Positions 1 through 54,300 of a stretch of 56,203 nt of DNA are shown here, one piece after another. How positions within the stretch are numbered: the first letter of the stretch is position 1; every line of letters starts with the position of its first letter. The translations under genes were made by a program, and so were the position numbers. Source of the DNA: a virus (taxonomy: Duplodnaviria; Heunggongvirae; Uroviricota; Caudoviricetes); the IMG/VR virus record IMGVR_UViG_2778260992_000008, positions 1-56,203 of that record. One strand, given 5' to 3'. The notes below the pieces were generated by a model. The model saw only the letters and a program-made list of their open reading frames with translations. It did no database searches and had not been told where the DNA came from.

Positions 1-234
1 TTACGTTTTATCAGTATCAGAAAGCAAGCCTACTGACTTAAAGAACTGCATTACATCTTGATAACGATATACAGGGCGCGACGTAGTTGATAATTCGTGA
101 AGCGGTTCAGGAAATGGGGTACCTGCCGCTTCCCATTTCATTTTCCATACTCTAAAGGTTGTCCTACTTATTCCGCCAAGCATTTCCCTGATCCGTGCCG
201 TAGTTAATAATAATGTCGCGGTTTTATCCATCAC
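1..234 (-). CDS. AlpA/Xis-family small DNA-binding protein (candidate excisionase or regulator)
   Basis: 77-aa ORF; HTH-like segment LLLTTARIREMLGGISRTTFRVW; last gene of the minus-strand arm. Confidence 0.45.
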   Translation of the reverse strand: MMDKTATLLLTTARIREMLGGISRTTFRVWKMKWEAAGTPFPEPLHELSTTSRPVYRYQDVMQFFKSVGLLSDTDKT

Positions 235-884
235 TCATCCCCGGTATATTTAGTTAGCGGGATATCCCCATTAATAATAAATTTTGCCATACCGCGATAA
301 TCACGCGAGTAGTCATTGTCGTGACCGAAATCAATTTCACTTGCCGCATCGAATCCGATAACGACGTTTGCCAGCGCGAACGCAATTTGTGCCAACGCTT
401 TTTCGCGCGGGTCAACGTGAATCCGGTAAGTGTATTGCGTCCATGCAATCGGTGTTTCTGCCTTACGCTCAAGTTTGCTTTGAGCAATGGCCCACTTGTC
501 ACCGATGAAACGGAACATAACCGTGTCGATTACGCAGCCGCTGGCTAAACCGTGACAATCAAGCCACACGCCGCACGGTGGTTTCTCCCCTACAATCCAT
601 TCCGTTTTCTCCGGTTTCGGATCACAGTCGTGGCGTTCGTCTTCGATCAGTTCATCAATAATTTCGCTTTCTTTATTCATGCCGTCATCATCCGTTTCAG
701 AGTAACGCACAAAGCGCCACGTATTAGCCATCAGCGTATAAGATTCACCGCCTACCTTAGATCCGGCGTAATACTCCGTCCCGAAATCGTAATAACTTAA
801 AAACGTAGTTACTTCAAAAGACGGAATATCGCCACGGAAGCGGTGAACCATTTTACCTATTGCAAAAGGGGTTTTCTTTGTCAT
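231..884 (-). CDS. hypothetical phage protein (217 aa)
   Basis: Long ORF whose stop overlaps the downstream gene start by 4 nt; no motif recognised. Confidence 0.45.
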   Translation of the reverse strand: MTKKTPFAIGKMVHRFRGDIPSFEVTTFLSYYDFGTEYYAGSKVGGESYTLMANTWRFVRYSETDDDGMNKESEIIDELIEDERHDCDPKPEKTEWIVGEKPPCGVWLDCHGLASGCVIDTVMFRFIGDKWAIAQSKLERKAETPIAWTQYTYRIHVDPREKALAQIAFALANVVIGFDAASEIDFGHDNDYSRDYRGMAKFIINGDIPLTKYTGDE

Positions 885-885
885 A

Positions 886-1074
886 TTACGCCACCGTTAC
901 ATTGTCAACCTGAATAAAATATTCAGGGTGGTTTTCTATTTCGTGCTGAAAGTGCGCGTGACACAATCGCCACTCCCGCGCCTGGTTGTGAAAGTAATAA
1001 ACGCATTCGCCATCAACCTTATACAAAATTCCGGTAGGTCTAGCCATATAATAACGCGCCATTATTGCCCCCAA
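886..1074 (-). CDS. hypothetical small Cys/His-containing protein
   Basis: 62-aa ORF packed between neighbouring minus-strand genes. Confidence 0.3.
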   Translation of the reverse strand: MGAIMARYYMARPTGILYKVDGECVYYFHNQAREWRLCHAHFQHEIENHPEYFIQVDNVTVA

Positions 1075-1493
1075 CGTTTTATGAATTCCTCGTTTAATTT
1101 CGTATCACCAGACCATTGAACATCATGTTCAGCACCGAACGAGTAAATCAATTCGATTAGTTCGCTGAATTCTGATTTACTCATCCGGCTTGTAGACGTT
1201 CCCAATACAACGAAGCCGGATTTATCCAGGTTAGGGACGACGCCATATTTCTTAAGCCCGGCAGTGAATACCGCTTTCCAGTCTTCCGGCGACAGCTTCT
1301 TACCGTACCAATTAACCTGATCGCTAATGTCGGTTAACAGCGCCCAAAGCAACGCATTTTGGCTTAGCGAGCGGGTTTTCTCCTGGATGGTAATTATCAG
1401 CGGGCTTTTGCTATCAGGCTGGATCTCTCTTATCTGCCTGATAGCATTTTCTTTCACTGCGTCGTTGACTATCTCAAATCTAATTTGCCTCAT
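1062..1493 (-). CDS. ninB: NinB-family recombination protein
   Basis: 143 aa; close match in order and motifs to lambda NinB (SQNALLWALLTDIS..., VVPNLDKSGFVVLGTSTSRMSKSEF...). Confidence 0.8.
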   Translation of the reverse strand: MRQIRFEIVNDAVKENAIRQIREIQPDSKSPLIITIQEKTRSLSQNALLWALLTDISDQVNWYGKKLSPEDWKAVFTAGLKKYGVVPNLDKSGFVVLGTSTSRMSKSEFSELIELIYSFGAEHDVQWSGDTKLNEEFIKRWGQ

Positions 1494-1687
1494 AATACAC
1501 CGTTGCTATTTTTCCATTGCGCCCGTGCGTACATAATCGCCTGCAAAGAAATTAGCCGCGAGCTTGTCATGAATGCGCCTTTTAAATATTTCATATCAAC
1601 CGTAACGGGCTTATCAGGATCATCGCCGCGCATGTACTCCGCGATAGTGCTTAAGTCTTCCACTGTTAAATCCAATTCCTTGTCCAT
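1490..1687 (-). CDS. hypothetical protein
   Basis: 65-aa ORF, 4-nt overlap with ninB start. Confidence 0.35.
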   Translation of the reverse strand: MDKELDLTVEDLSTIAEYMRGDDPDKPVTVDMKYLKGAFMTSSRLISLQAIMYARAQWKNSNGVL

Positions 1688-1696
1688 AATTCCCCC

Positions 1697-1903
1697 TTAC
1701 ACAATCCGCATTGTGTTTCGTAATTCCCCGCGCAGCGCCCGCAATGCATCGCGCATTGGCACAAAAACCCGGTTAAATTTTACGTGTTTATATTTACGCA
1801 TCAGTGGCGGTGTATACACCATTGCGTCGTATACTTCCCACGGATAATAAACGCGCGTATCGTCAACAAACGTTTCAACTGAATAAAAGATTACACGTCT
1901 CAT
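1697..1903 (-). CDS. hypothetical protein
   Basis: 68-aa ORF in operon context. Confidence 0.35.
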   Translation of the reverse strand: MRRVIFYSVETFVDDTRVYYPWEVYDAMVYTPPLMRKYKHVKFNRVFVPMRDALRALRGELRNTMRIV

Positions 1904-2457
1904 AATTCTAACCCCGTTTCCCCGTTAAGTTTTTCGATCTCAAATACTGGTTTATCCGGTAGTAGGCCGTTATTTTTCCGGTATTCGTTCAGGCGGCTGT
2001 CAAAGTCAAACGCGAGATCATTCGCGTGACCGAAGCGACCAGGTTTAAACAGTGAGTAAAAATTAAGGCCGTGTTTATTGGTATCTATGCAAAGCGTTTC
2101 ATCCAGCACCATTAAACGCAGCGTGCGCGAAAGGTAATTCCACGGAATGCCAGTTTCCGCGCTAATATCTCTCATTCGCTTTCTAACGTTGTAGTCAGTA
2201 AATAACGCGGCTACACGCTCGCGTCGTTGTTCGTATAAATATTTAATTCGATAGCCCAGCAAGCGGCGGCGCGGGCCAAAATATGTATACACCCGCTCAA
2301 CCAGATTAGTGTCGATCAGGTGTTTAACTGTTTCCGGCAAGCATCCGGCTTCGTCGTATTCCGCTGATAATCCTGTTTTCTGGCGTAGCTGGTGCATTGT
2401 TGCGATGCCATCAAGTTCAAGGATATTGATAATTTTTGCTTCAAGTTCAATGCTCAT
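1900..2457 (-). CDS. hypothetical protein downstream of helicase gene
   Basis: ORF 1900-2493; ATG at 2457 preceded by GAGG chosen over the upstream non-ATG start. Confidence 0.4.
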   Translation of the reverse strand: MSIELEAKIINILELDGIATMHQLRQKTGLSAEYDEAGCLPETVKHLIDTNLVERVYTYFGPRRRLLGYRIKYLYEQRRERVAALFTDYNVRKRMRDISAETGIPWNYLSRTLRLMVLDETLCIDTNKHGLNFYSLFKPGRFGHANDLAFDFDSRLNEYRKNNGLLPDKPVFEIEKLNGETGLEL

Positions 2458-2536
2458 TGTTTTTCGCCTCGTTTTAAGCGCGAAAACAGCCACCAGAAAG
2501 CGGTCAACTTTCCGGTAAGCCGTTTGCTCAAGTTAA

Positions 2537-3958
2537 TTAAAAAGATGCGTTGTTCTGGCTGTTTCGTGTGGAGAATCGACTTGCCGCCGGACGTTGTTGC
2601 ATTGACTGAATGCAAGCGGACGCCGCGCGGGCCTGGTCGCATGGGATGATGTTGCCGTTATCGTCAAACCGCTGGTAAACAGTCCCCGTTTTCCCGTGAC
2701 GGTTTTTTGAAACGATGATCTCCATATATTCGCGGGCAACCGATTGTTCGTTGTAGTAGCCGTCGCGGTAGACCATGATGATCCGGTCTGCGTCCTGTTC
2801 AAGATTACCGGAATCACGCAGATCAGAATTGTTCGGGCGCTTGTTCGGTCGTTCCTCAACGCGGCGGGATAATTGCGCCAGCGCCGCCACTGGCACGCGC
2901 AACTCTTTCGCCATCATTTTCAATGACCACGACAATTGCCCTACGGCGAGATCATGACGTTCGGCCTTAGCCAGCTTCATTAACCCGATGTAGTCAATCA
3001 TTACCATCCCCAGGTTAGGATGGTCCTGTTTCATCCGTTCGACGGTGGCGCGTATTTCCTCGACCGTTAACTGCGATGCGTCAACAATCCACACATCGAG
3101 ATCGGCAAGGGCACTCATTCCCTGGGCGACGTGCGCCCAACCTTCGTCATCCAGTTTTACCGGATTACGTAGGCAATCCGTTGATAAGTTCCCAGCGCCA
3201 GCGATAGCACGTTCAGTCATCTGATCGAGCGACATTTCAAGCGTGAACAGCAAAACGCCGACCCGTTGACCTTCGCCGCCAGGGTATGGACGTTCAGCCG
3301 CCGCGCGGGCAATTGCCAACGCTAACGCCGATTTACCAGACCCTGGGCGTCCGGCGATAAGCACCAGATCAGTAGCGTTAATGCCGCCTAACATTTCGTC
3401 GAGTGGTTCGATCCCTGTTTTGATGTTGTCAGAATTAACACCACATTCCATACGTTTGCTTAAGACTTCCGTATATTCCTGTACCGCGTCGCGCAACAGC
3501 ACCGGAATAATCTTGTCTTTCGTTGTCTTTAATTTTGAATAGCGGGAATCAAAATATTTCATCGTCTCCCTGACGGCTTCGAGCGTCCCGGTCTCCAGGT
3601 TGTAGCGGATATCGTCTATCAGTTCCAACATTTGCCGCCGCTGATATTCCTCCTGCAATAGAGCTGCGTACCCCTTAAGGTTGGCAGCAGATGGACACGA
3701 TCGCGCCGTTTGCATTAGCGGGACAAAATTTTCGTTACCGATTTCATCACCGACCATCAGCGCGTCAATAAGGTTTCTGTTTCTGGCTTGCGCCCGGATT
3801 ATCTCAAACGCTCGTTTATATAGTGGAATGGTGAAGACTTCAGGATCGAGCGTAGCAAGAACATCTTGCGCGTTAGGAGTAAGACCGCCCAACAGGAGGC
3901 CACCTATCACAGCCGCCTCCCGTTCCTGGCGTAATGAGTTTATTTGCTCAGTCACCAT
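2537..3958 (-). CDS. replicative DNA helicase, DnaB family
   Basis: 473 aa; Walker A GRPGSGKSALALAIA, DnaB-like N-terminal domain and RecA-like core motifs. Confidence 0.9.
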   Translation of the reverse strand: MVTEQINSLRQEREAAVIGGLLLGGLTPNAQDVLATLDPEVFTIPLYKRAFEIIRAQARNRNLIDALMVGDEIGNENFVPLMQTARSCPSAANLKGYAALLQEEYQRRQMLELIDDIRYNLETGTLEAVRETMKYFDSRYSKLKTTKDKIIPVLLRDAVQEYTEVLSKRMECGVNSDNIKTGIEPLDEMLGGINATDLVLIAGRPGSGKSALALAIARAAAERPYPGGEGQRVGVLLFTLEMSLDQMTERAIAGAGNLSTDCLRNPVKLDDEGWAHVAQGMSALADLDVWIVDASQLTVEEIRATVERMKQDHPNLGMVMIDYIGLMKLAKAERHDLAVGQLSWSLKMMAKELRVPVAALAQLSRRVEERPNKRPNNSDLRDSGNLEQDADRIIMVYRDGYYNEQSVAREYMEIIVSKNRHGKTGTVYQRFDDNGNIIPCDQARAASACIQSMQQRPAASRFSTRNSQNNASF

Positions 3959-3976
3959 TATGGTATTGCCTCCGGT

Positions 3977-5095
3977 TTACAAAATGGAATATTCAGGGTA
4001 ATAAACAAAGCGCCCAATTTCCCCATAATCCGGGCTGTAAATTATTACCGCTGCCAGCCGCCGCGACCGCCAGCCGCCATTTGTTGAATAAGCGTCTTTG
4101 CCCGCTAACGTGCCGTGATGTTCAACGATCCCTAACGATGTTTCTACGACAGATTGATGATGTAGGTGGCCCGTGTGAGCGTAAACCGCCGCCGACTTAC
4201 CGAAATCCTCCCGCCAGTCAGAAACGCAGGCAGCCAACAAATTTTCGGGTTTTTTGATAGTGTGCCCGTGGTGGTAAGCAAGGAATGTTTTTCCGTACTG
4301 TGTGTGGTGAACGATAGCAGGGGATACATCAACCGTCACGCGCGGTTCATCTTCATAAAAAGCCGCCAGCGCCGCACGTAGCCAAATCATCCCCGATTGG
4401 TCGTGGTTGCCGGATAATACCTGGATCTCGACATCCTTATGATTTAGTAACATCTTCCCGACCGCACGCCTGACCGACCGGATCGCCACATAAACAAGTT
4501 TTGCGTAGCGACTATCTTGATCAAGAATATGTCCGCTTGTCGGTGTAACCGGGATCATCCCATCAGAATGGAGTAGATCTCCGCCTAACAGCAAAACAGC
4601 CTTTTCAGACATTGGAGCAGCGCCTACAGCGTAGTCGAAGAAGTCATTTAGCACGCGTTCAGCGATCCCGGTGTCGTAGCTTTCGCCGCATTCCGCCCTA
4701 TGCGCAAGCGCCCCGATATGAAGATCGAATACCGGATAAAGGGCCAGGCTTTTTTGGAAATCAATCTCAGGAACTGGCACAGCCTCCGCGCGGGGTATCT
4801 CTTCCGTGAAAGCATCGCAAGCCGCTTGCATTAGCCTTTCCATTTCGTCTCGATCACGGGCCGTTTTAATCCAGCGCATAATCACATTGCCATCCTTATC
4901 AACGAGCAATGATTCACCGTTAACACCGAAGCCAGGAGCGCGACGCGTGGATATTAAACCGCGCTTCGCCAGCCGTGCGCCCAGGCGTTCGACGTTGCGT
5001 TTTGCCATTCCATATTCTTCGGCTATTTGCTTGTAAGTTTTCCCCTTATTGTATTCAGCGATCAGTTGTTCGTCGCTGATCTTTCTTTGTGACAT
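3977..5095 (-). CDS. HTH-domain protein fused to calcineurin-like metallophosphoesterase
   Basis: N-terminal HTH (KTYKQIAEEYGMAKRNVERL); phosphoesterase motifs FDLHIG, GGDLLHSDG, SGNHDQ, YHHGH, HTGHLHH; sits between replication organiser and helicase. Confidence 0.6.
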   Translation of the reverse strand: MSQRKISDEQLIAEYNKGKTYKQIAEEYGMAKRNVERLGARLAKRGLISTRRAPGFGVNGESLLVDKDGNVIMRWIKTARDRDEMERLMQAACDAFTEEIPRAEAVPVPEIDFQKSLALYPVFDLHIGALAHRAECGESYDTGIAERVLNDFFDYAVGAAPMSEKAVLLLGGDLLHSDGMIPVTPTSGHILDQDSRYAKLVYVAIRSVRRAVGKMLLNHKDVEIQVLSGNHDQSGMIWLRAALAAFYEDEPRVTVDVSPAIVHHTQYGKTFLAYHHGHTIKKPENLLAACVSDWREDFGKSAAVYAHTGHLHHQSVVETSLGIVEHHGTLAGKDAYSTNGGWRSRRLAAVIIYSPDYGEIGRFVYYPEYSIL

Positions 5096-5272
5096 AACGT
5101 TATTCCCTCCGGTTCACGGAATGAGTATTTATTCATAAATAACTATTTTTATTAACATGGATTTTCCGGTGACAAAAAAAGTCATCGGTGATAAATCAAT
5201 AACTTACGCAAATTAAAAATAACTACTTAATAAATAACTAATCGTATACATTATAGTTTACATTTTGTATAT

Positions 5273-6184
5273 TCATTGACAGCAAACAATCTCTTTATAT
5301 GTTTCTTCTACCATGTCGAAAACTTCAGGCCTGTAATAAAAAAATTCTTCGCTACCGCTAAATTTTACAGGAAAGTTAATTTTATAATTGCTAAAAGCCT
5401 TATGCATCGTTCTTTCTAATTCATATATATTTTCGGTTGGTCCATATAGCGTTTTCACGATATGCAAATCAGGAATTATAACGCCTGCTTTATGTGCGCT
5501 TCTTAATACCTGATTTCTTCGCTCGTTCTCCTTAACACTTACACCTATTTTCATTTGTGTAGGTACTTCCAGATCATCAACCATGATGTAAAGTTTTCCG
5601 TGATCGTGGGATAAAAAACCGCGTTTACCGCATTTCGGGCAACCGTGCCCGCATTTAAGGTGACTAGGCTTTGCTAACCACTTGTGATTACAAACTTTAC
5701 AGCGACACAATACCTTCTTCGCATCTCCGGTAATTTTCCCTAAAACTTCAACATCATGATTAGCCTTAACAATATTTGCAACTTGTTCTTTGTGTGTTAA
5801 TGTTGCTTTTAATCTCGCGCATTTCGGGCAACCGTGCCCGCATTTAAGGGCATTAGGTATAGACGACCATTCATGTCTACAAACCTTGCATCGACATAAC
5901 ACTTTCGTTTTGTCTCCTGTTATTTCTCCTGTAACTTCAACATCAGGATTAACCTTAGCAATGGCTACAACCTGTTCTTCGTGTGTTAACTTCGCATTTC
6001 CAGCGCATTTTGGACAACCCTGACCTCGCTTGAGGTTGCAAGGTGTAGGCGACCATTCATGTCTACAAACCTTGCATCTACATGTGACTTTTGTTTTATT
6101 GCCAGTAATTTCCCCGATCACTTCAACATCAGGATTGACGTCAGCAATAACTGCAACCTGTTCTTCGTGTGTTAACTTTCTCAT
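5273..6184 (-). CDS. triple zinc-ribbon repeat protein with C-terminal T5orf172/GIY-YIG-like domain
   Basis: Three ~47-aa repeats (LTHEEQV..NPDVEV.GEITG.KTKV.CRCKVCRHEWS...GCPKC); C-terminal KLYIMVDD...ENIYELERTMH...SGSEEFF; AT-rich; start 6184 chosen (ORF extends to 6226). Confidence 0.55.
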   Translation of the reverse strand: MRKLTHEEQVAVIADVNPDVEVIGEITGNKTKVTCRCKVCRHEWSPTPCNLKRGQGCPKCAGNAKLTHEEQVVAIAKVNPDVEVTGEITGDKTKVLCRCKVCRHEWSSIPNALKCGHGCPKCARLKATLTHKEQVANIVKANHDVEVLGKITGDAKKVLCRCKVCNHKWLAKPSHLKCGHGCPKCGKRGFLSHDHGKLYIMVDDLEVPTQMKIGVSVKENERRNQVLRSAHKAGVIIPDLHIVKTLYGPTENIYELERTMHKAFSNYKINFPVKFSGSEEFFYYRPEVFDMVEETYKEIVCCQ

Positions 6185-6324
6185 CGATCCAACTCCACAA
6201 AACGCACCAGACGCTATACAACGCAAAATTCCACCGCGTAACCCACTTGTAAGGGTGCAGTGTCTTTTTCGCGCCAGAGACGCTATCAGGTGGCTAATTT
6301 TCGATTTTTAAGGTGACAGGGTAG

Positions 6325-6426
6325 TTATGGATTAACTAGCAGATACAAACCGCCGAACAAAGCGACATTAACAGCGATAGCCATCGCGATCGCGAAAGCC
6401 AGGGCGAACATGCGTTTACCGTTCAT
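6325..6426 (-). CDS. small hydrophobic peptide (33 aa)
   Basis: MNGKRMFALAFAIAMAIAVNVALFGGLYLLVNP; RBS AGAGAGGA 8 nt upstream; not in track (<60 aa). Confidence 0.3.
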   Translation of the reverse strand: MNGKRMFALAFAIAMAIAVNVALFGGLYLLVNP

Positions 6427-6558
6427 AGCTAAATCCTCTCTCAATCGCTCTCTAACGAGCTAATCGCAAAAAGGTAAGAAGTGTAGCACCCCATGCGATT
6501 TAGCCCGCTGGTGAGCTTGTTTTGTGGGTAATTTTGGTTCTTTAGTGATGATGGATAG

Positions 6559-7668
6559 TCAAAGAGCGCCAGCGCGTGTATCACGTAGCGTTTTTGGTTT
6601 AAGCAGGAAATCAAGTGTCGCAGTAAAGCCATTGCCGAAGTAAAAATCTGAAGCCGTGTTTTTGAACGCCTCAAAGTAAGCAATAAAGCCAGTGATGCTT
6701 TTGTCTTTCAGGTAGTCAGTGAACGCATAGATCTTGCGTTCCAAATCCCGATCCAGTTCGGCAGGTGGTAACAGGCCGTCGAATGTCTGGTTAAATGCTG
6801 ATACCACGACAGCAGCGTTAACAGTAGCTGTAACTCTTCGCCATTGTTCAGCATCAGCCAGATACCCATCAAACTTAGTTACCCGGCAAATGTTGATAGG
6901 CTTAGGTACTCCACTCCGGCTACGCCATTGCGTTAAAGCCCATTCAATTACTAATGTGATCTCATCCTCCGTATATGCCTTACGTGTTTTTGTTTCTGTC
7001 AGTAGTTCGATGAATGGCTTCGTATCACGACATTTGCATCCTGCTTTTTCGTTGTAGAAAGCTAAGCAACGGTAAGCCGCCTCGCTTATCTGAAAGTCAC
7101 CGTCCTGATTGACCGTTTTTTGTCCATTTTCGCTAATACACGAAGTGTATATATCTTTTTCTATTTCTTCTTCTACTTCTTCTTCTACTTCTAATCCATG
7201 GCTATGACATGGTTGTGCCATGGCTGCATCATGGTTGTGCCATGGTTTTTCTTTTTCTGTATCTTGTGAATTATTTACTTCCACTAAAGGATTATCTAAC
7301 TTTTTATTTTTTTTGACGTTTAGCCTTTTAATTGCTTCCCTAAATTCGCTTTTTGATGAAGCCATTGATTGATCAAGTCTTTTTGCTAACGACAAGCATC
7401 TTACAACGCCATGCGAGCAATCGAACAAGCCAACTTCGATGAAGTATCTCATCATTTCTTCTACACGTTTCGGACTTGATCCGACATTACGGGCAATAAT
7501 TCTTGCGTCGTGTTTTAGTTCGAATGTCAGATTATGTTGATCTACTTCGTAGGCTATTAACTCGATGCAGTACCAATAAAGGCCGTATCCTTCCAGACCA
7601 TAATCAAGCAAAACGTTTTGAAGTTTTTCATCGCGGTTCGCATCGCTATCATGCTTAAACCACTTCAT
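6559..7668 (-). CDS. replication initiation / replisome organiser protein
   Basis: N-terminus MKWFKHDSDANRDEKLQNVLLDYGLEGYGLYWYCIELIA resembles phage replisome-organiser N-terminal domains; strong RBS AGGAGAAAAGCAA-ATG; first gene of minus-strand arm. Confidence 0.7.
   Translation of the reverse strand: MKWFKHDSDANRDEKLQNVLLDYGLEGYGLYWYCIELIAYEVDQHNLTFELKHDARIIARNVGSSPKRVEEMMRYFIEVGLFDCSHGVVRCLSLAKRLDQSMASSKSEFREAIKRLNVKKNKKLDNPLVEVNNSQDTEKEKPWHNHDAAMAQPCHSHGLEVEEEVEEEIEKDIYTSCISENGQKTVNQDGDFQISEAAYRCLAFYNEKAGCKCRDTKPFIELLTETKTRKAYTEDEITLVIEWALTQWRSRSGVPKPINICRVTKFDGYLADAEQWRRVTATVNAAVVVSAFNQTFDGLLPPAELDRDLERKIYAFTDYLKDKSITGFIAYFEAFKNTASDFYFGNGFTATLDFLLKPKTLRDTRAGAL
7160..7330. repeat. iteron-like direct repeats plus AT-rich tract inside the replication gene (candidate origin)
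   Basis: CATGGTTGTGCCATGG at 7208-7223 and 7230-7245; CTTCTTCTACTT x2 upstream; AT-rich run 7246-7330. Confidence 0.45.
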
Positions 7669-7975
7669 TTGCTTTTCTCCTATGGTTAAAATGAACGCGC
7701 GGGCGGGTATCCCATTAGCATTAGATAGCAGTGATTGACCGCTTAACAGATCCCGCCGTTGCGTGATATTTGTTTTTCGCTTCGCAGCGACACCGGGTTT
7801 TTAAAGAGCTTTAAGGTATGCGCCTTTTTGTGCTATTCCCTTATCTTTTTTCTTGCATCCTTGCAAGTCTGGCTTTACCTTGTCTGCAAGTTTACAGAAT
7901 GGCATTTACAGGTCAAGACTTGAAAAATACATTTTGTGACTTGCATCAAACTTTTTGGGGCGATAGGGTAGCGAC

Positions 7976-8623
7976 ATGAAAACAAAATGGTATGACTTAG
8001 CAAAACAACTCATGCGGGCGCAAGGTATGAGCCAGGATTCATTGGCGGACCTGATGGGGATCACGAAAGGCGGCTTATCGCACTGGCTGAACGGTCGCCG
8101 TGAGCCAAATCTTAATGATATTGCGCGGATCATGCGGGCGCTTGGTCGTCGGCAGTTTACGGTCACACATGATGGGATGGTTATTGATGATTCACTTTCT
8201 AATACACTGCCGGGAGCGCCACCGCTCGACGTAGGGCGTTATCCGGTGATTGACTGGAAAGACGCAGGAAACTACATGGAAGAAGCAAAACGCGCATCAT
8301 TACCGCACGTTAACACTAGCGTGATTTGTTCGGATGATAGTTATTGGCTGGTTGCAAAAGGTGAATCGATGAACGCGCCGCAAGGATTGAGCATCCCGGC
8401 GGGAACGATGATACTTGTTGATCCACACGCGCCAGCTATTGACGGCAAACTGGTTATAGCCCAATTGGAGGAAGGGCAAACGCCGACGTTTAAACAGTTG
8501 ATTATTGATGGAGGTCAAAGGCTTTTACGCTCGCTTAATCCGTTGTATCCACCAATCCCGCTAAATCCTGAATCAAAAATTATTGGCGTGGTGGTGGACG
8601 CGAAGATCGTAAACCTGCCATAA
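7976..8623 (+). CDS. cI-like repressor, HTH plus S24 LexA-type peptidase domain
   Basis: N-terminal HTH (SQDSLADLMGITKGGLSHWLNGRR); C-terminal GESM Ser and FKQL Lys dyad; divergent from replication genes. Confidence 0.85.
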   Translation: MKTKWYDLAKQLMRAQGMSQDSLADLMGITKGGLSHWLNGRREPNLNDIARIMRALGRRQFTVTHDGMVIDDSLSNTLPGAPPLDVGRYPVIDWKDAGNYMEEAKRASLPHVNTSVICSDDSYWLVAKGESMNAPQGLSIPAGTMILVDPHAPAIDGKLVIAQLEEGQTPTFKQLIIDGGQRLLRSLNPLYPPIPLNPESKIIGVVVDAKIVNLP

Positions 8624-8628
8624 ACATT

Positions 8629-8653
8629 AGCCGCCGGATGGCGGCTTTTCTTT
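8629..8653 (+). terminator. rho-independent terminator after repressor gene
   Basis: AGCCGCC-GGAT-GGCGGCT hairpin followed by TTTCTTT. Confidence 0.55.
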
Positions 8654-8732
8654 GCCCGGAAAACACCAAAACGTAAACCGAAAACGGGTTTTATCATTTG
8701 AATATCAATGAGATAGAAAATATTTTAAAAAA

Positions 8733-8775
8733 GTATACAAAATGGATTGACTCGACATATCACAGGGCGTATATT
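8733..8775 (+). promoter_or_regulatory. sigma70-like early promoter with upstream ACAAAATGG element
   Basis: TTGACT (8747-8752), 17-nt spacer, TATATT (8770-8775); GTATACAAAATGGA immediately upstream. Confidence 0.55.
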
Positions 8776-9098
8776 GCGAATCAAAGGAAGGAAGCAGGAA
8801 ACAAAAAGCACCTTCCAGGCACTTTAAAAATCAGGCTTAACACCTTGTCAACCGTGGAGTAACTCCCCGATGTGGGACCGAAAGCGGCACTGATAACAAG
8901 GCGCATGGGGTGTTTAAAGCGTTACATCCCCCACGAAACCGCACGCAAGGCGACGAGTCAGATCACTTGGATTGAGTGGTGTCACACCGGAAACGGCGAT
9001 GATTGCGGGATTAGTTGAACGATGTTAAGCCATTCTCTTTAACAATCTGGTCGCTACTGAAATGTAGCAAACATGATTTTAACTAAGGAGAAAAGATT

Positions 9099-9419: not shown

Positions 9420-9539
9420 ATGGTTATTCAGGCGCTTCAATTCAAACTGGCAGTAGCGGAAATGCTTCACGATGCCGAAATGTGGAGCGCCGCGAATAAA
9501 GCCTTATACGTAGTGTTAACAGCGAAGGAGATTAAATAG
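9420..9539 (+). CDS. small hypothetical protein (39 aa)
   Basis: RBS GGAGGTGA; stop overlaps the GTG start of erf. Confidence 0.3.
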   Translation: MVIQALQFKLAVAEMLHDAEMWSAANKALYVVLTAKEIK

Positions 9540-10174
9540 TGAAAACAGAGTTACACAAAAAGCTGTGGACGATTCAGCAAACGCTGAACGCGCCGAAAAA
9601 TCAGCGTAATAATTTTGGCGGGTATAATTACAGGTCGGCGGAGGATATTCTAGAGGCGGTTAAACCACTGCTTCAAAATATCACGCTGACTGTAAGTGAT
9701 GAAATTGTCCTGATCGGCAATCGCTATTATGTGAAAGCAACTGCAACATTAAGCGACGGTGAAGACGTAATAGCGGTAACTGCTTACGCCAGGGAGGAAG
9801 AAAGCAAGAAGGGTATGGATGCAAGCCAGCTAACAGGAGCGACATCAAGTTACGCGCGAAAATATGCTTTGAACGGCTTATTCTGCATTGATGACGCAAA
9901 AGATCCTGATACTGATGCTTACGCGAAACAGACAAATCAACAGCCGCGACAGCAGAAAAACCCGCCAAAACAACAGCAGCAGAAATCGCCGCCAAATCCT
10001 GATGAAGTATTAGCACGTTTCTGTGATGCAGCAGCAAAAGCGCCGGACGCTAACAAGCTGCGTGAAATATTTGGCAAATGTTGGAAATTACTACCGGAAG
10101 GATCGGAACATCGAATCAAGGCAAAAGATGTTTATGACATCCGGGTCGCAGAACTTAACGGGGAGATGGGTTAA
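9539..10174 (+). CDS. erf: Erf-family ssDNA annealing recombinase
   Basis: LNAPKNQ.N.FG.Y.YRS.EDILE..KPLL and IVLIGNRYYVKATAT...GATSSYARKYALNGLF match P22 Erf; GTG start. Confidence 0.8.
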   Translation: MKTELHKKLWTIQQTLNAPKNQRNNFGGYNYRSAEDILEAVKPLLQNITLTVSDEIVLIGNRYYVKATATLSDGEDVIAVTAYAREEESKKGMDASQLTGATSSYARKYALNGLFCIDDAKDPDTDAYAKQTNQQPRQQKNPPKQQQQKSPPNPDEVLARFCDAAAKAPDANKLREIFGKCWKLLPEGSEHRIKAKDVYDIRVAELNGEMG

Positions 10175-10590
10175 TGAGTTTAAATTCAATTACGCTGGGC
10201 GGGAATATCGGAAATGACATGGAAGTCCGCTACACGCAAAGCGGCAAAGCGATCGGTAGCTTCCCGTTAGCTGTAACGAATGGCTACGGCGATAATAAGC
10301 GGACAATGTGGATCACTTGTCTGGTATTTGGTGAGCGTGCGGAAAAATTAGCGCCGCATATCCGCAAGGGTGGAAAAATAGTGGTAAGCGGTCGCCTGGA
10401 TGTTCGGCAGTTTGACCGGAACGATGGCACGAAGGGGACGGCGGTCGAAGTGGCGGTTAATGAGTTCGAATTCATGAACGTTAACCAACAAGGCCAGCAG
10501 CAAGGCCAGCAGCAGAAAGCGCCGCCGCAGCAGCAGAATAATAACGGGAATAATCCGCCGATGGACTTCGACGACGATATTCCTTTTTAG
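10174..10590 (+). CDS. ssb: single-stranded DNA-binding protein
   Basis: OB-fold N-terminus, Gln/Gly-rich linker, canonical acidic tail PPMDFDDDIPF. Confidence 0.85.
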   Translation: MSLNSITLGGNIGNDMEVRYTQSGKAIGSFPLAVTNGYGDNKRTMWITCLVFGERAEKLAPHIRKGGKIVVSGRLDVRQFDRNDGTKGTAVEVAVNEFEFMNVNQQGQQQGQQQKAPPQQQNNNGNNPPMDFDDDIPF

Positions 10591-51355: not shown

Positions 51356-54300
51356 ATGATCTACACCATTGGAAATATTGCCGTATCCGGTAACACGCTG
51401 ACCGGGACGGGCACAAATTTTAAAGCACCCTTATCTATGATCCGCGTAGGGTGCACCGTTATTGTAAAAAGCGACCCTATCCAGATCTTTTCCATCACTG
51501 AAATTGTCAGTGAAACGGAATTATCTGTGACCCCGGCAGCATCACCGGATATTCCGGCGGGTACTGCTTACAGTATTTTATTGTGTGATTCGATCTCAGT
51601 TGATGGGCTGGCGCAAGACGTAGCGGAAGCATTACGGTATTTTACCGGGCAAGAGTCAGAGATCTATGCTGCCGTTGAATACTGGAAAAATTATGGTGAT
51701 GCCGCGCAGGTGGAAGCATTGTTAACCGCTATCCAGGCGGAAACAGCGCAATCAACCGCCAACGCCGCAGCCACCGCCGCAGACGTTGAAACAACCGCCG
51801 CAGCACTGAATGAAGCTGTAGCAGCAAAAGACGCAGCGGAAGCAGCAGCCGCCAACGCAGAGCAGCAGGCCGCCACCGCCACCACGCAGGCGACTACCGC
51901 TACCGAACAAGCTACCGCCGCAGCGGAAGCAGCAGCAGAAGCAAAAGATCATCGTGGCACGGCTTACATCTGGATGAATGAGGCTATCAGCCAGGCGACA
52001 ACGGCTACCGAGCAAGCGACCATCGCTACCGAAAAAGCAACGGCAGCGACCGATGCCGCCACCGCCGCACAGGAAGCACTGACGCTTACCCAGGAAGCCC
52101 GCGACACTGCCACCCAACAGGCAACCATCGCTACCGAACAGGCCACTATCGCTACTGACGCCGCCAACGCCGCCGAAACAAGCGCCGCCAACGTCGCAGC
52201 AGACGAACAAGAAATTGCAGCCAATGCAGCCGCAGCAGCAGAAGCAGCCACCGCCGCCGCATTATCAGAAGCTAATGCGAAAACTTACGCGGAGCAAGCA
52301 AAAGCACTATCAGAAGACTCATTATCCCTTATCGGCTTGGGCGCTGATCGCCGTGATTGGCCCGATTGCACGACTGATCCATCAGCCTATATTGGCTTTG
52401 TTCGTCTGGAAGAAGCCACCGCGACGGGTTTCCCGTCTATCGCTTCCGGTGAAGTCTACCTGGTAGGCTGGCTGGCACGCGGTGACGGCCTGTTCATCAA
52501 TGGTTGTTTCGTAGGTACGAATACTCGCTCGCTCTACACCTACATGTATAACAATGCCGATGGGACTTACGGCTGGACCCGTCACGCCCGGAAGGACGAA
52601 GTAAGTCGCTTTGTTCAGCGCGGCGGTGAATCGGAGGTGTACAGTGGCGATGGTCGTAAATATTTTTTCATAAACAACATGGACGGGACTTATCATTGGG
52701 GGGCTTACGATACAAGTACGGGGCAAACCGTTCCGTTACAAGTATCTTGCGGCGGTACAGGTGGGCGTAATGCCGGACAAGCCCGCACCAGCTTACAGGT
52801 GATGTACGAACAAAAAACTGACCTCGGAGATACGGATCTAAACACCCTGACTGGTGAGTATTCCGGTTTCTATCGCCAGAAAACCAACGCAAAAGCCACC
52901 ACTGAACATAATTACCCGTGCAACTATGCGGGCGCGCTTGTCGTGCTGGGGAATAGTGCTAATAGTGATTCGGGATGTACGCAAATTTATTACCCCTATA
53001 ACTATAGTGATTTGTATTATACCCGTTGGTGTAATGGTTCTGATCTTAATTGGTCCGACTGGTGCGAGCATCGCGGCTACTGGACAATCCTTAATAACAT
53101 TGGCTTAGGTGCATCACCTCGCCATTGTAATGATCTCACGGGTGATCCATTCTCTTATATTGGCTTCTTACGCCTGACTCCGGCGGGGACCACTGGCTAT
53201 CCTGACGTCGCAACAGAAGCGGGCGAGGGCGCTTTGAGTGGTTACATCTGCCGTAACGATGGTGAACCTTCATACTCCGGCTTATTTGTCGGTGCTACGA
53301 CTGGCGCGGCCTACACCTACCGCTATAGCTTAGGTGGTGGCGTTCAATGGCAAAGAATTCCGCGAGCTAATGACTTAAGCCGTTTTGTGCAAAACGACTC
53401 AACAACGCGCATGTATGGCCCGACAGGCGATCGCTTCTTTGAGATCCACACCAACGGTAATTGGGGTGTTTACAGTACCGCTGATTCCGCGTGGATACCG
53501 TTAGGTATTGCACAGGGCGGCACAGGTGCAACAGACGCAGCCACGGCCCGCACTAATTTAGGGTTAGGCACTACAAACGATGTGCAGCATCAGAATCTGA
53601 CGCTGACCCGTACAAGCGACGGGACAGATGGTTGGGTAGCTGGTGGTATGACCAAATCTAAACTTTTAGGTACTGACGGCACTGTACGCGCCGAGGGCTG
53701 GATGTATGCAGAATGCAACGCAAGTAGCCCAACGCAAATGACCTTTGCCATCCATTCAGCGACCGAAGGCTACAAATATTTGTCTTTCAATACGAAAGGC
53801 CAGATCCTGGCTGAAACGGCTATTTTCCGTTCAACCTACGTTAACCCGTTGGTTATTGAAAGCACTACCCCGACAGTCAGCTTTAACGAAACCGACCGCC
53901 CGGATGGCGCACCTTATTACAACTTTATTGCCGATGGCGGCAACTGGCGTATTCAGAAAAACGGCGACGGGTATGATGGTGAATATGTAATAAGTTATGA
54001 CTATAAACTCAACGAGATTCAAGTACCTAACTTGCTTGCTACGGCTATCCAGAAACCTTTAAACCTCGATCAGACCAAAACAAATCTGCAAATCCCTTAC
54101 ACCGGGGTGAGCCATTGGACCGACTACAACGCCCCGGAAGGCGCGGAAGCAACCAAATACTATCCGGTTATTATTTCTCAACCGTCATACTTCAACGGTG
54201 ATTTCTTTGTCGAAGTCGCTATGCGCACACGCTCAATACAGGGCGCTGAAGAACCTAACTGTAACGCCATTCACCTATGGATGCGTGATGGTGGCTGGTC

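What the first reader, a model, noticed from the sequence alone, without database searches (positions are those of the whole stretch)
3977..5095. HTH-metallophosphoesterase fusion in the helicase-loader position
Between the replication organiser and the DnaB-family helicase, where lambdoid phages usually have a P-type or DnaC-type loader, lies a 372-aa protein. It has an N-terminal HTH and a complete calcineurin-like phosphoesterase motif set (DxH, GDxxHSDG, GNHD, HH, GHxHH). The 4-nt gap to the helicase gene suggests coupled expression. This is an unusual replication-module composition.
Basis: partly seen in the sequence, partly recalled or inferred. Interest (0 to 1): 0.6.

Follow-up and report, generated by a model that had tools for sequence, protein, structure and literature searches.

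The report
Phage T1-type HTH-phosphoesterase beside helicase
The gene is real and encodes a DNA-binding domain fused to a metal-dependent phosphoesterase. It belongs to a very common, already annotated but untested phage family (phage T1 gene 16 type), and nothing indicates that it loads the neighbouring helicase.

Summary
The 372-aa ORF at 3977-5095 (-) exists. It has an N-terminal three-helix HTH and a complete, strongly conserved metallophosphoesterase (MPE) motif set. Two details of the finding are wrong. The gap to the helicase gene is 18 nt with its own Shine-Dalgarno, not 4 nt. A homing-endonuclease gene (5273-6226) lies between the initiator and this gene.

The window is an mEp021-like (mEpimmI) temperate coliphage. 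The protein matches PHROG 704 ('DNA repair exonuclease') over its full length and is 56% identical to phage T1 ORF16. Relatives occur in more than 2,000 deposited phage genomes and about 4,450 50%-identity clusters.

Outside the mEp021 lineage the gene is not next to a DnaB helicase. It sits at the end of early DNA/nucleotide-metabolism (nin-like) regions, often just before the lysis genes.

The helicase is 58% identical to P22 gp12. The initiator keeps the gp18-type C-terminal domain. P22-type modules have no gene between 18 and 12.

MPE alleles (62% vs 98% identity) swap independently of the helicase.

Best reading: an HTH-tethered, Mre11/SbcD-like Mn-dependent nuclease/phosphodiesterase of phage DNA metabolism, co-expressed with the helicase. 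The activity is inferred, not shown. This is an ordinary member of a known but uncharacterised family.

The parts
3977..5095 (-). HTH-metallophosphoesterase gene (372 aa; stop codon 3977-3979); member of PHROG 704 / phage T1 ORF16 family
   Evidence: ORF. phrog_704 E 5e-141 over residues 4-368. 56% identical to T1 ST16. 90-94% identical to mEp013 and MagusPhagus genes.
4961..5095 (-). N-terminal three-helix HTH domain (aa 1-45), sigma-70 region 4 / GerE-like
   Evidence: AF2 helices 8-16, 21-28, 32-44. Weak hits to sigma70-ECF, IS630 HTH and IscR. Family members hit Sigma70_r4_2 (11/70), HTH_8 (9), GerE (5). Absent in the Campylobacter phage homologue.
4796..4924 (-). Beta-hairpin plus long helix (aa 58-100) linking the HTH to the catalytic core; contains conserved G69 and W75
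   Evidence: AF2 secondary structure. G69 and W75 are 93% conserved in 147 representatives.
3980..4768 (-). Metallophosphoesterase catalytic core (aa 110-372). Motifs: D124xH126, G172D173xxH176xD178, G229N230H231D232, H276, G309H310xH312. Also a family-specific conserved loop 178-196 (T184, L191, D192, D194, R196).
3959..3976 (-). 18-nt spacer between the MPE stop and the helicase ATG, carrying a GGAGG Shine-Dalgarno
   Evidence: Sequence. The same spacer length occurs in 37 of 42 related loci.
2537..3958 (-). P22 gp12-type DnaB-family replicative helicase (473 aa)
   Evidence: Pfam DnaB_C 8.8e-76 and DnaB N-terminal. 58% identical to ST104/P22 gene 12 product.
5096..5272 (-). AT-rich intergenic spacer upstream of the MPE gene, with GGAGG before the ATG
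   Evidence: Sequence. No strong promoter or terminator call on the minus strand.
5273..6226 (-). Mobile homing-endonuclease-like gene (three treble-clef zinc-finger repeats plus T5orf172/GIY-YIG-like domain) inserted between initiator and MPE gene
   Evidence: Pfam DUF4379 x3, CapR, T5orf172. phrog_681 endonuclease. 3 x 176-nt direct repeats. Absent or replaced in MagusPhagus, mEp013 and prophage relatives.
6559..7668 (-). Replication initiator (369 aa): Lin1244_N N-terminal domain plus C-terminal domain homologous to P22 gp18 / O-like initiators
   Evidence: Pfam Lin1244_N. phrog_428 and phrog_345. Residues 246-367 align to gp18 139-265, E 1e-10.
7154..7265 (.). Iteron-like 11-nt repeats (CCATGGyTnnn / CATGGTTGTG) and flanking purine/pyrimidine-biased repeats inside the initiator gene: candidate origin
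   Evidence: Repeat families D2 and D4. By analogy with ori iterons inside lambda O and P22/L gene 18 (bioRxiv 10.1101/2020.10.05.325894).

Best explanation
The gene encodes a stand-alone, DNA-tethered binuclear metallophosphoesterase. An N-terminal sigma-4/GerE-like HTH holds a compact Mn2+/Fe-type phosphoesterase core on DNA. That core has an intact active site and is most similar in fold and motif II (GDxxH) to Mre11/SbcD/PolD-DP1 nucleases.

I infer that it hydrolyses phosphodiester bonds in DNA, by end resection or by cutting single strands or structured DNA. I also infer that it serves phage DNA metabolism, for example by making or cleaning ends for the Erf/SSB/NinB/NinG recombination-dependent phase of replication.

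In this phage lineage the gene is transcribed in the early replication operon just upstream of a P22 gp12-type helicase and translated from its own ribosome-binding site. The helicase is most likely recruited directly by the gp18-like C-terminal domain of the initiator, as in P22, not by this protein.

Shown here: the ORF, domain architecture, conserved catalytic residues, MPE fold, family membership (PHROG 704 / T1 ORF16), gene contexts and allele reassortment.

Inferred: nucleic acid as substrate, the role of the HTH, and the biological process.
For: Family and architecture:
- Full-length match to phrog_704.
- 56% identity to T1 ST16.
- 2,046 phage records with a homologue.
- 4,451 cluster representatives at E<=1e-3.

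Active enzyme:
- All metal-ligand and catalytic residues are 95-100% conserved in 147 representatives and invariant in a 26-67% identity alignment.

Fold:
- The Foldseek top hits are Mre11-DNA complexes.
- The only MPE hits of the family profile in PDB sequences are T. maritima Mre11/SbcD, and they are weak (E 0.26-0.6).
- The motif II His (H176) typical of Mre11 is 96% conserved.

DNA link:
- The fused HTH is present in about 95% of representatives.

Context:
- The gene is always among early DNA genes. T1-like phages: helicase, VRR-NUC, Dam, MPE. ST44-like phages: DUF3987 helicase, MPE, primase, SF2 helicase, RecE-like exonuclease, Erf, SSB. Campylobacter phage: next to DNA ligase. Marine lambdoid-like contigs: NinG ... 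MPE ... Q, holin.
- It is a persistent core gene in 508 of 522 Drexlerviridae (PMC13164509).
- It is a frequent neighbour of homing endonucleases, as conserved DNA-metabolism genes usually are.

Against a loader role:
- P22-type 18/12 modules lack any such gene.
- The MPE is adjacent to DnaB only in the mEp021 lineage.
- A prophage with a 97.9% identical helicase has a 61.9% identical MPE.
Against: - No member of the family has been tested biochemically or genetically, as far as the searchable literature shows.
- The motif III to IV spacing (45 residues) is like that of the small YfcE/MJ0936-type enzymes rather than Mre11.
- There is no Mre11 capping domain, and no Rad50/SbcC partner in the window.
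- Profile comparison with E. coli SbcD found only the GNHD segment.
- The AF2 model is of moderate quality (pLDDT 75). The conserved loops 131-140, 178-194 and 332-344, probably substrate-binding, are unresolved.
- Several recurrent neighbours are nucleotide-metabolism genes (dNMP kinase, PNKP-type phosphatase, DUF5664/MazZ-N protein). These would fit a small-molecule substrate equally well.
- Within the mEp021 lineage the gene is never lost and always stays directly upstream of the helicase (42/42). A lineage-specific functional coupling therefore cannot be excluded.
Confidence: 0.5

Rival explanations
1. Helicase loader or loading accessory. The HTH-MPE protein binds the phage DnaB-type helicase and/or the origin and is needed to place the helicase on DNA, filling the role of lambda P or DnaC in this module.
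For: The gene is immediately upstream of the helicase with an 18-nt spacer in the same operon. This adjacency is kept in 42/42 relatives, even when the MPE allele, the helicase (55.6% identity in L017) or the initiator type is exchanged. No DnaC or lambda P homologue is found anywhere in the window or in the annotated relative.
Against: The helicase is 58% identical to P22 gp12, and the initiator shares the gp18 C-terminal domain. P22-type modules work with genes 18 and 12 alone (bioRxiv 10.1101/2020.10.05.325894). The family is adjacent to DnaB in only 38 of 309 surveyed loci, all of one lineage. It is core in phages whose replication genes include no DnaB-type helicase (T1-like, Dhillonvirus). 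A 62%-identical allele serves with a 98%-identical helicase. There is no AAA+ or lambda P-like region. Strict conservation of the catalytic site points to an enzyme.
Confidence: 0.07
2. Nucleotide or end-healing phosphoesterase. The enzyme acts on small phosphodiesters or on 3'-phosphate / 2',3'-cyclic phosphate ends (as the MPE domain of bacterial Pnkp does) and belongs to phage nucleotide-pool or nucleic-acid-repair metabolism rather than being a nuclease.
Against: A fused DNA-binding HTH is not expected for a soluble small-molecule enzyme. The best structural and profile hits are nucleases. The window phage has no PNK, ligase or dNMP kinase next to the gene.
Confidence: 0.2
3. Regulator or protein phosphatase of the nin region. 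The HTH acts as a transcription factor or autoregulator, and the MPE domain is a sensor or a protein phosphatase. This would be a positional analogue of lambda NinI (the Ser/Thr phosphatase encoded just before Q).
For: In many lambdoid-like contigs the gene lies between NinG and the Q antiterminator/holin, the position of ninI in lambda. The HTH resembles sigma region 4 / LuxR-type regulators.
Confidence: 0.08
4. Counter-defence enzyme that destroys a host immune signal (cyclic or linear nucleotide second messengers) or host DNA.
For: Metallophosphoesterases include cyclic-nucleotide phosphodiesterases (Rv0805, CpdA-like hits). The gene is expressed early.
Against: Core, near-universal presence within whole phage families (508/522 Drexlerviridae, PMC13164509) and retention in 42/42 relatives are unlike patchy accessory anti-defence genes. 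There is no PADLOC-related match. The HTH fusion is unexplained.
Confidence: 0.07

Closest known systems
PHROG 704 'DNA repair exonuclease' = phage T1 ORF16 (ST16) family ('putative phosphoesterase' of Drexlerviridae, Dhillonvirus, Kagunavirus, Jerseyvirus and others)
   Same: Full-length homology: E 5e-141 to the PHROG profile and 56% identity to T1 ST16. Same HTH + hairpin/helix + MPE architecture, same invariant motifs, same length of about 370-380 aa.
   Different: The genomic position differs. In T1-like phages the gene closes the helicase/VRR-NUC/Dam operon just before the lysis cassette. Here it sits between the initiator and a P22-type DnaB helicase of a temperate phage (vs 1). No member has a demonstrated activity.
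Mre11 / SbcD nucleases (and the PolD DP1 proofreading exonuclease)
   Different: No capping domain and no Rad50/SbcC-binding region. No Rad50/SbcC gene in the phage. Shorter motif III-IV spacing. A family-specific conserved loop at 178-196. An N-terminal HTH instead. Sequence-profile similarity is marginal.
P22 / lambdoid two-gene replication modules (gene 18 initiator + gene 12 DnaB-type helicase)
   Same: The helicase is 58% identical to gp12. The initiator C-terminal domain is homologous to gp18. There are iteron-like repeats inside the initiator gene. NinB and NinG lie downstream, and an Erf/SSB/Abc2 recombination set is present.
   Different: P22-type phages have nothing between 18 and 12. 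Here a homing endonuclease gene and the MPE gene are interposed, and the initiator N-terminal domain is of the Lin1244 type.
Lambda P and DnaC/DnaI helicase loaders
   Same: Only the position upstream of, or next to, a DnaB-family helicase gene in an early replication operon.
   Different: No homology, no AAA+ domain and a catalytic phosphoesterase core. Lambda P and DnaC act on the host DnaB, whereas this phage brings its own gp12-type helicase.
Lambda NinI (orf221) Ser/Thr protein phosphatase
   Same: Also a metallophosphoesterase encoded in the delayed-early (nin) region of a lambdoid phage. In many distant relatives the HTH-MPE gene occupies the ninI-like position before Q.
   Different: A different MPE subfamily (PPP type, GDxxDRG/GNHE, 221 aa, no HTH). 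No detectable sequence similarity. Structural similarity is much lower.

Membership tests
Calcineurin-like metallophosphoesterase superfamily | Ordered motif set DxH / GD / GNH(D/E) / H / GHxH providing the ligands of a binuclear metal centre | tested here: met
   D124, H126, D173, N230, H231, H276, H310 and H312 are present. They are 95-100% conserved in 147 cluster representatives.
Calcineurin-like metallophosphoesterase superfamily | Alpha-beta-beta-alpha sandwich fold | tested here: met
Calcineurin-like metallophosphoesterase superfamily | Match to the Pfam Metallophos / Metallophos_2 profiles | tested here: inconclusive
   The window protein has no hit at E<=0.01. 17 and 10 of 70 family representatives hit the two profiles, with best E 2.7e-5.
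PHROG 704 / phage T1 ORF16 family | Full-length profile match and shared HTH-MPE architecture | tested here: met
   phrog_704 E 5.1e-141, residues 4-368 on profile positions 2-387 of 390. 56% identity to T1 ST16 over 375 residues.
Mre11 / SbcD nucleases | Nuclease-domain fold closest to Mre11/SbcD | tested here: inconclusive
Mre11 / SbcD nucleases | C-terminal capping domain and Rad50/SbcC-binding helices | tested here: not met
   The protein ends with the MPE core (strands up to residue 365). Only about 190 of 362 Mre11 residues align.
Mre11 / SbcD nucleases | Partner SMC-like ATPase (Rad50/SbcC) encoded alongside | tested here: not met
   No SbcC-like ORF in the six-frame translation of the window. 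None is annotated in MagusPhagus.
Mre11 / SbcD nucleases | Detectable sequence-profile homology | tested here: inconclusive
   The family profile against PDB sequences hits T. maritima Mre11/SbcD at E 0.26-0.6 only. hhalign against E. coli SbcD aligns 16 columns at probability 2%.
Mre11 / SbcD nucleases | Mn2+-dependent exo/endonuclease activity on DNA | not testable with these tools
   Needs purified protein.
Replicative helicase loaders (DnaC/DnaI AAA+ type, lambda P type) | Homology to DnaC/DnaI (AAA+ with Walker motifs) or to lambda P | tested here: not met
   No such Pfam, NCBIfam or PHROG match. phmmer with E. coli DnaC and lambda P finds nothing in this ORF, even with filters off.
Replicative helicase loaders (DnaC/DnaI AAA+ type, lambda P type) | Consistent co-occurrence with a DnaB-family helicase across the family | tested here: not met
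   DnaB lies within 1.5 kb in 38 of 309 loci, all mEp021-like. It is absent from T1-like and Dhillonvirus contexts.
Replicative helicase loaders (DnaC/DnaI AAA+ type, lambda P type) | Co-variation with the cognate helicase | tested here: not met
   L011: helicase 97.9% identical, MPE 61.9%. L017: helicase 55.6%, MPE 71.1%. Four IMG/VR loci carry helicases at least 93% identical with MPE alleles of 62-66%.
Replicative helicase loaders (DnaC/DnaI AAA+ type, lambda P type) | Physical binding to the helicase and stimulation of loading | not testable with these tools
   No multimer prediction or biochemistry was available.
PPP-type protein phosphatases (lambda NinI) | GDxxDRG and GNHE motifs and PPP fold | tested here: not met

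The most novel reading that the evidence does not exclude
In the mEp021/mEpimmI lineage the T1-type HTH-phosphoesterase has been recruited as an obligatory enzymatic partner of the P22-type initiator/helicase pair. It might, for example, nick or process origin DNA, or remove a block, so that the phage DnaB can be loaded. That would be a nuclease-assisted route to helicase loading with no known precedent among lambdoid phages. Support comes from its invariant position directly upstream of the helicase in 42/42 relatives despite allele, helicase and initiator exchanges, and from the absence of any recognisable loader.
Probability: 0.06. Interest if true: 0.8.

Novelty: new member of a known kind. 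Interest (0 to 1): 0.25.

Why it matters
For this finding little changes. The gene is one more copy of a family that annotation pipelines already label 'DNA repair exonuclease / putative phosphoesterase'. The replication module is explained by the P22 paradigm without a loader.

The wider point is that this family is very large: about 4,450 50%-identity clusters, more than 2,000 isolated phages, and core status in Drexlerviridae including the classical phage T1. It keeps an intact active site and still has no tested function. A simple biochemical and genetic study in T1 or mEp021 would annotate thousands of phage genes. It would also show whether phages use a Rad50-independent, HTH-tethered Mre11-like nuclease.

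Tried and rejected
1. Pfam and NCBIfam on the window protein gave no domain hit. Family-level scanning was needed.
2. phmmer against PDB sequences gave only insignificant HTH hits.
3. A second homologous-protein run with a divergent alignment returned the same close relatives because of the word-index cap, so it added no diversity.
4. The search for related loci with the divergent alignment A1 failed because no stretch was conserved enough. It was replaced by four single-protein scans.
5. hhalign of the family profile against single E. coli SbcD was uninformative: 16 columns, probability 2%. Planned comparisons with CpdA and LpxH (loci fetched) were therefore dropped.
6. The AFDB50 fold library was unavailable. 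BFVD returned only uncharacterised homologues.
7. Literature searches for a characterised member, a loader role or defence-escape mutations found nothing relevant. The mEpimmI genome paper does not discuss the gene.
8. The promoter/terminator scan of 1-9000 gave nothing above the shuffled expectation near the gene.
9. PADLOC gave no defence-family match.
10. A packaging-nuclease idea (position near the lysis/terminase junction in some phages) was considered. It was dropped because the position relative to terminase is not consistent across clades.
Full report
**What is there.**

The window is a temperate coliphage of the mEp021 / mEpimmI group. Region 2500-7700 is 90% identical to Escherichia phage MagusPhagus and 84-85% identical to mEp013, mEp515, mEp554, mEp044 and mEp021. 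The group is described in PMC11893012, which does not discuss this gene.

On the minus strand the early operon reads as follows:
- Initiator, 6559-7668: Lin1244_N domain plus an O/gp18-like C-terminal domain.
- A homing-endonuclease-like gene, 5273-6226: three treble-clef zinc-finger repeats plus T5orf172.
- A 177-nt AT-rich spacer.
- The target ORF, 3977-5095 (372 aa).
- An 18-nt spacer.
- A DnaB-family helicase, 2537-3958.
- A winged-helix protein in the lambda ren position, 1900-2493.
- Small ORFs, then NinB, 1062-1493.

The divergent plus strand carries a cI-like repressor, then Erf and SSB.

**Checking the observation.**

Motifs:
- In an 8-sequence alignment spanning 26-67% identity, D124, H126, G172, D173, G229, N230, H231, H276, G309, H310 and H312 are invariant.
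- In 147 representatives of 50%-identity clusters the metal-ligand and catalytic positions are 95-100% conserved.

Fold:
- An AlphaFold2 model (34-sequence alignment, pLDDT 75, pTM 0.67) shows three N-terminal helices, a beta-hairpin plus a long helix, and an MPE sandwich.
- Foldseek puts Mre11-DNA complexes first.

Profile searches:
- The window protein itself gives no Pfam hit.
- Of 70 diverse family members, 17 hit Metallophos and 10 hit Metallophos_2. Many hit Sigma70_r4_2, GerE, HTH_8 or HTH_23 at the N-terminus.

Two details are wrong:
- The distance to the helicase ATG is 18 nt and includes a separate GGAGG.
- The gene does not directly follow the initiator.

**What family it belongs to.**

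- The protein matches phrog_704 ('DNA repair exonuclease') end to end, E 5e-141.
- tblastn finds homologues in 2,046 deposited phage genomes, 1,957 of them over at least 80% of the length. These include Drexlerviridae (T1, Tls, Webervirus), Dhillonvirus, Kagunavirus, Jerseyvirus, K1H-like phages, and Vibrio, Rhodobacter, Sulfitobacter, Synechococcus, Flavobacterium and Campylobacter phages.
- An exhaustive HMMER search counts 4,451 cluster representatives at E<=1e-3 and 972 at E<=1e-30.
- Phage T1 ORF16 (ST16) is 56% identical over the full length.
- A 2026 pangenome study found the 'DNA repair exonuclease' gene persistent in 508 of 522 Drexlerviridae, directly before the lysis cassette (PMC13164509).
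- I found no paper reporting an activity or phenotype.
- BFVD structural neighbours are all uncharacterised.

**Is it in a loader slot?**

Four lines of evidence say no.

1. *The helicase type.* The helicase is 58% identical to the P22-type gene 12 product. Residues 246-367 of the initiator are homologous to the C-terminal domain of gp18, E 1e-10. In ST104/P22-type phages gene 18 abuts gene 12 with nothing between. Those modules consist of just these two genes, with the origin iterons inside gene 18 (bioRxiv 10.1101/2020.10.05.325894). That gp12 is a DnaB analogue is attributed there to Wickner 1984. The window also has iteron-like 11-nt repeats inside its initiator gene, at 7196-7250.

2. *Distribution.*
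   - In T1-like phages the gene follows SF2 helicase, VRR-NUC and Dam and precedes the lysis genes.
   - In Dhillonvirus it follows the lysis genes at the genome end.
   - In Jerseyvirus it lies between tail genes and an HNH gene.
   - In Salmonella phage ST44 it sits between a DUF3987 helicase and a primase.
   - I surveyed 309 IMG/VR loci retrieved with four divergent family members. A DnaB homologue lies within 1.5 kb in 38 loci, all mEp021-like. None of the 229 loci from the Dhillonvirus, Vibrio-phage and Rhodobacter-phage scans has one that close, and 21 of them have one within 6 kb.
   - Clustering the neighbours and annotating them shows a lambda-like delayed-early ('nin') context: NinG, antiterminator Q, lambda S-type holin, lysozyme, HNH endonucleases, dNMP kinase, a PNKP-type HAD phosphatase and a PF18909 protein.

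3. *No co-variation.* A prophage with a 97.9%-identical helicase carries a 61.9%-identical MPE. Another has a 55.6% helicase and a 71.1% MPE. Four IMG/VR relatives with helicases at least 93% identical carry MPE alleles of 62-66%.

4. *An active enzyme.* Loaders are adaptors or AAA+ proteins. This protein has neither feature and keeps a perfect hydrolase site.

**What speaks for some coupling.**

- Within the lineage the arrangement is fixed. All 42 IMG/VR loci with a helicase at least 92% identical have the MPE gene directly upstream, usually with the same 18-nt spacer. In three loci, and in mEp021 itself, an HNH homing endonuclease gene lies between.
- The slot survives exchange of the initiator type (HTH_36-type or other), of the upstream accessory gene (Rha/ANT or homing endonuclease) and of the helicase.
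- No DnaC, lambda P or DnaT homologue is detectable anywhere in the window. None is annotated in MagusPhagus.
- I therefore keep a small probability for a lineage-specific accessory role.

**Most likely mechanism.**

The evidence combines an intact binuclear-metal site, best matches to Mre11/SbcD/DP1, the Mre11-like His in motif II, a fused HTH, and constant company of replication, recombination and nucleotide genes. This points to a DNA-tethered Mn-dependent nuclease/phosphodiesterase acting in phage DNA metabolism.

In this phage, Erf, SSB, Abc2, NinB and NinG are present. A role in preparing or cleaning DNA ends for recombination-dependent replication is therefore plausible.

This is an inference. 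The structural preference for nucleases over small generic phosphodiesterases is slight. There is no capping domain or Rad50/SbcC partner. The conserved loops that probably hold the substrate are poorly modelled. A nucleotide or end-healing substrate is the main rival. Regulator/protein-phosphatase and counter-defence readings are less likely.

**Verdict.**

The gene is a new copy of a known, very widespread, annotation-level family. Its placement next to the helicase is a lineage peculiarity of mEp021-like phages grafted onto a P22-type initiator/helicase pair. Interest is low to moderate. The real open question is the untested function of the whole T1-ORF16 family.

Noticed in passing
window 7154-7265 (inside the initiator gene 6559-7668): Iteron-like repeats: CCATGGCTATGACATGGTTGTG is repeated with an 11/22-nt period, flanked by TCTTTTTCTATTTCTT-type repeats. 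The position, in the linker of the initiator gene, matches where lambda and P22/L carry their origins, so this is a candidate ori.
   Followed up: partly
window 5273-6226 (-): 317-aa gene made of three 176-189-nt tandem repeats, each a treble-clef zinc-finger module (DUF4379/CapR), plus a T5orf172/MUG113 nuclease-like domain. It is absent from MagusPhagus and mEp013. Other relatives have a larger zinc-ribbon protein, a Rha/ANT gene or small ORFs at this position. It behaves as a mobile homing endonuclease cassette.
   Followed up: partly
L011, L337, L360, L365, L368 vs window 2537-5095: MPE alleles of only 62-66% identity sit next to helicases that are 93-98% identical. Four of these five divergent alleles come with an HNH gene inserted between MPE and helicase. 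This suggests homing-endonuclease-driven co-conversion as the cause of the mosaicism.
   Followed up: partly
window 3959-3985 and 5096-5125 (-): Both the MPE gene and the helicase gene are preceded by nearly the same ribosome-binding context: (G)T(G/A)AACCGGAGG(G/C)AATA(A/C)C, then the ATG 6-7 nt further.
   Followed up: no
IMG/VR loci L105-L333 (e.g. L207 5501-5932): In 51 loci from three divergent clades the MPE gene lies within three genes of a ~144-aa protein matching PF18909 (N-terminal domain of dATP/dGTP diphosphohydrolase, DUF5664); in 30 of them the two genes are adjacent. This is the most recurrent cross-clade neighbour and a possible functional partner. It is absent from the window.
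   Followed up: partly
window 1900-2493 (-): 197-aa winged-helix protein directly downstream of the helicase, in the position of lambda ren. It has weak PHROG hits to a MarR-family regulator and to the Ren-like exclusion protein, and is conserved (175-185 aa) in all relatives examined.
   Followed up: no
window 9539-10590 (+) and MagusPhagus 52105-53456: P22-like recombination set on the opposite arm: Erf and SSB, with an Abc2 anti-RecBCD gene annotated in the closest relative. NinB (1062-1493) and a NinG homologue lie elsewhere. No lambda Exo/RecE-type exonuclease was seen next to Erf.
   Followed up: no
L009 5001-5954 (Campylobacter phage CPX): The Campylobacter myovirus homologue lacks the whole N-terminal HTH region and lies directly after a T4 gp30-type DNA ligase gene. 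This shows that the HTH is an accessory module of the family.
   Followed up: no
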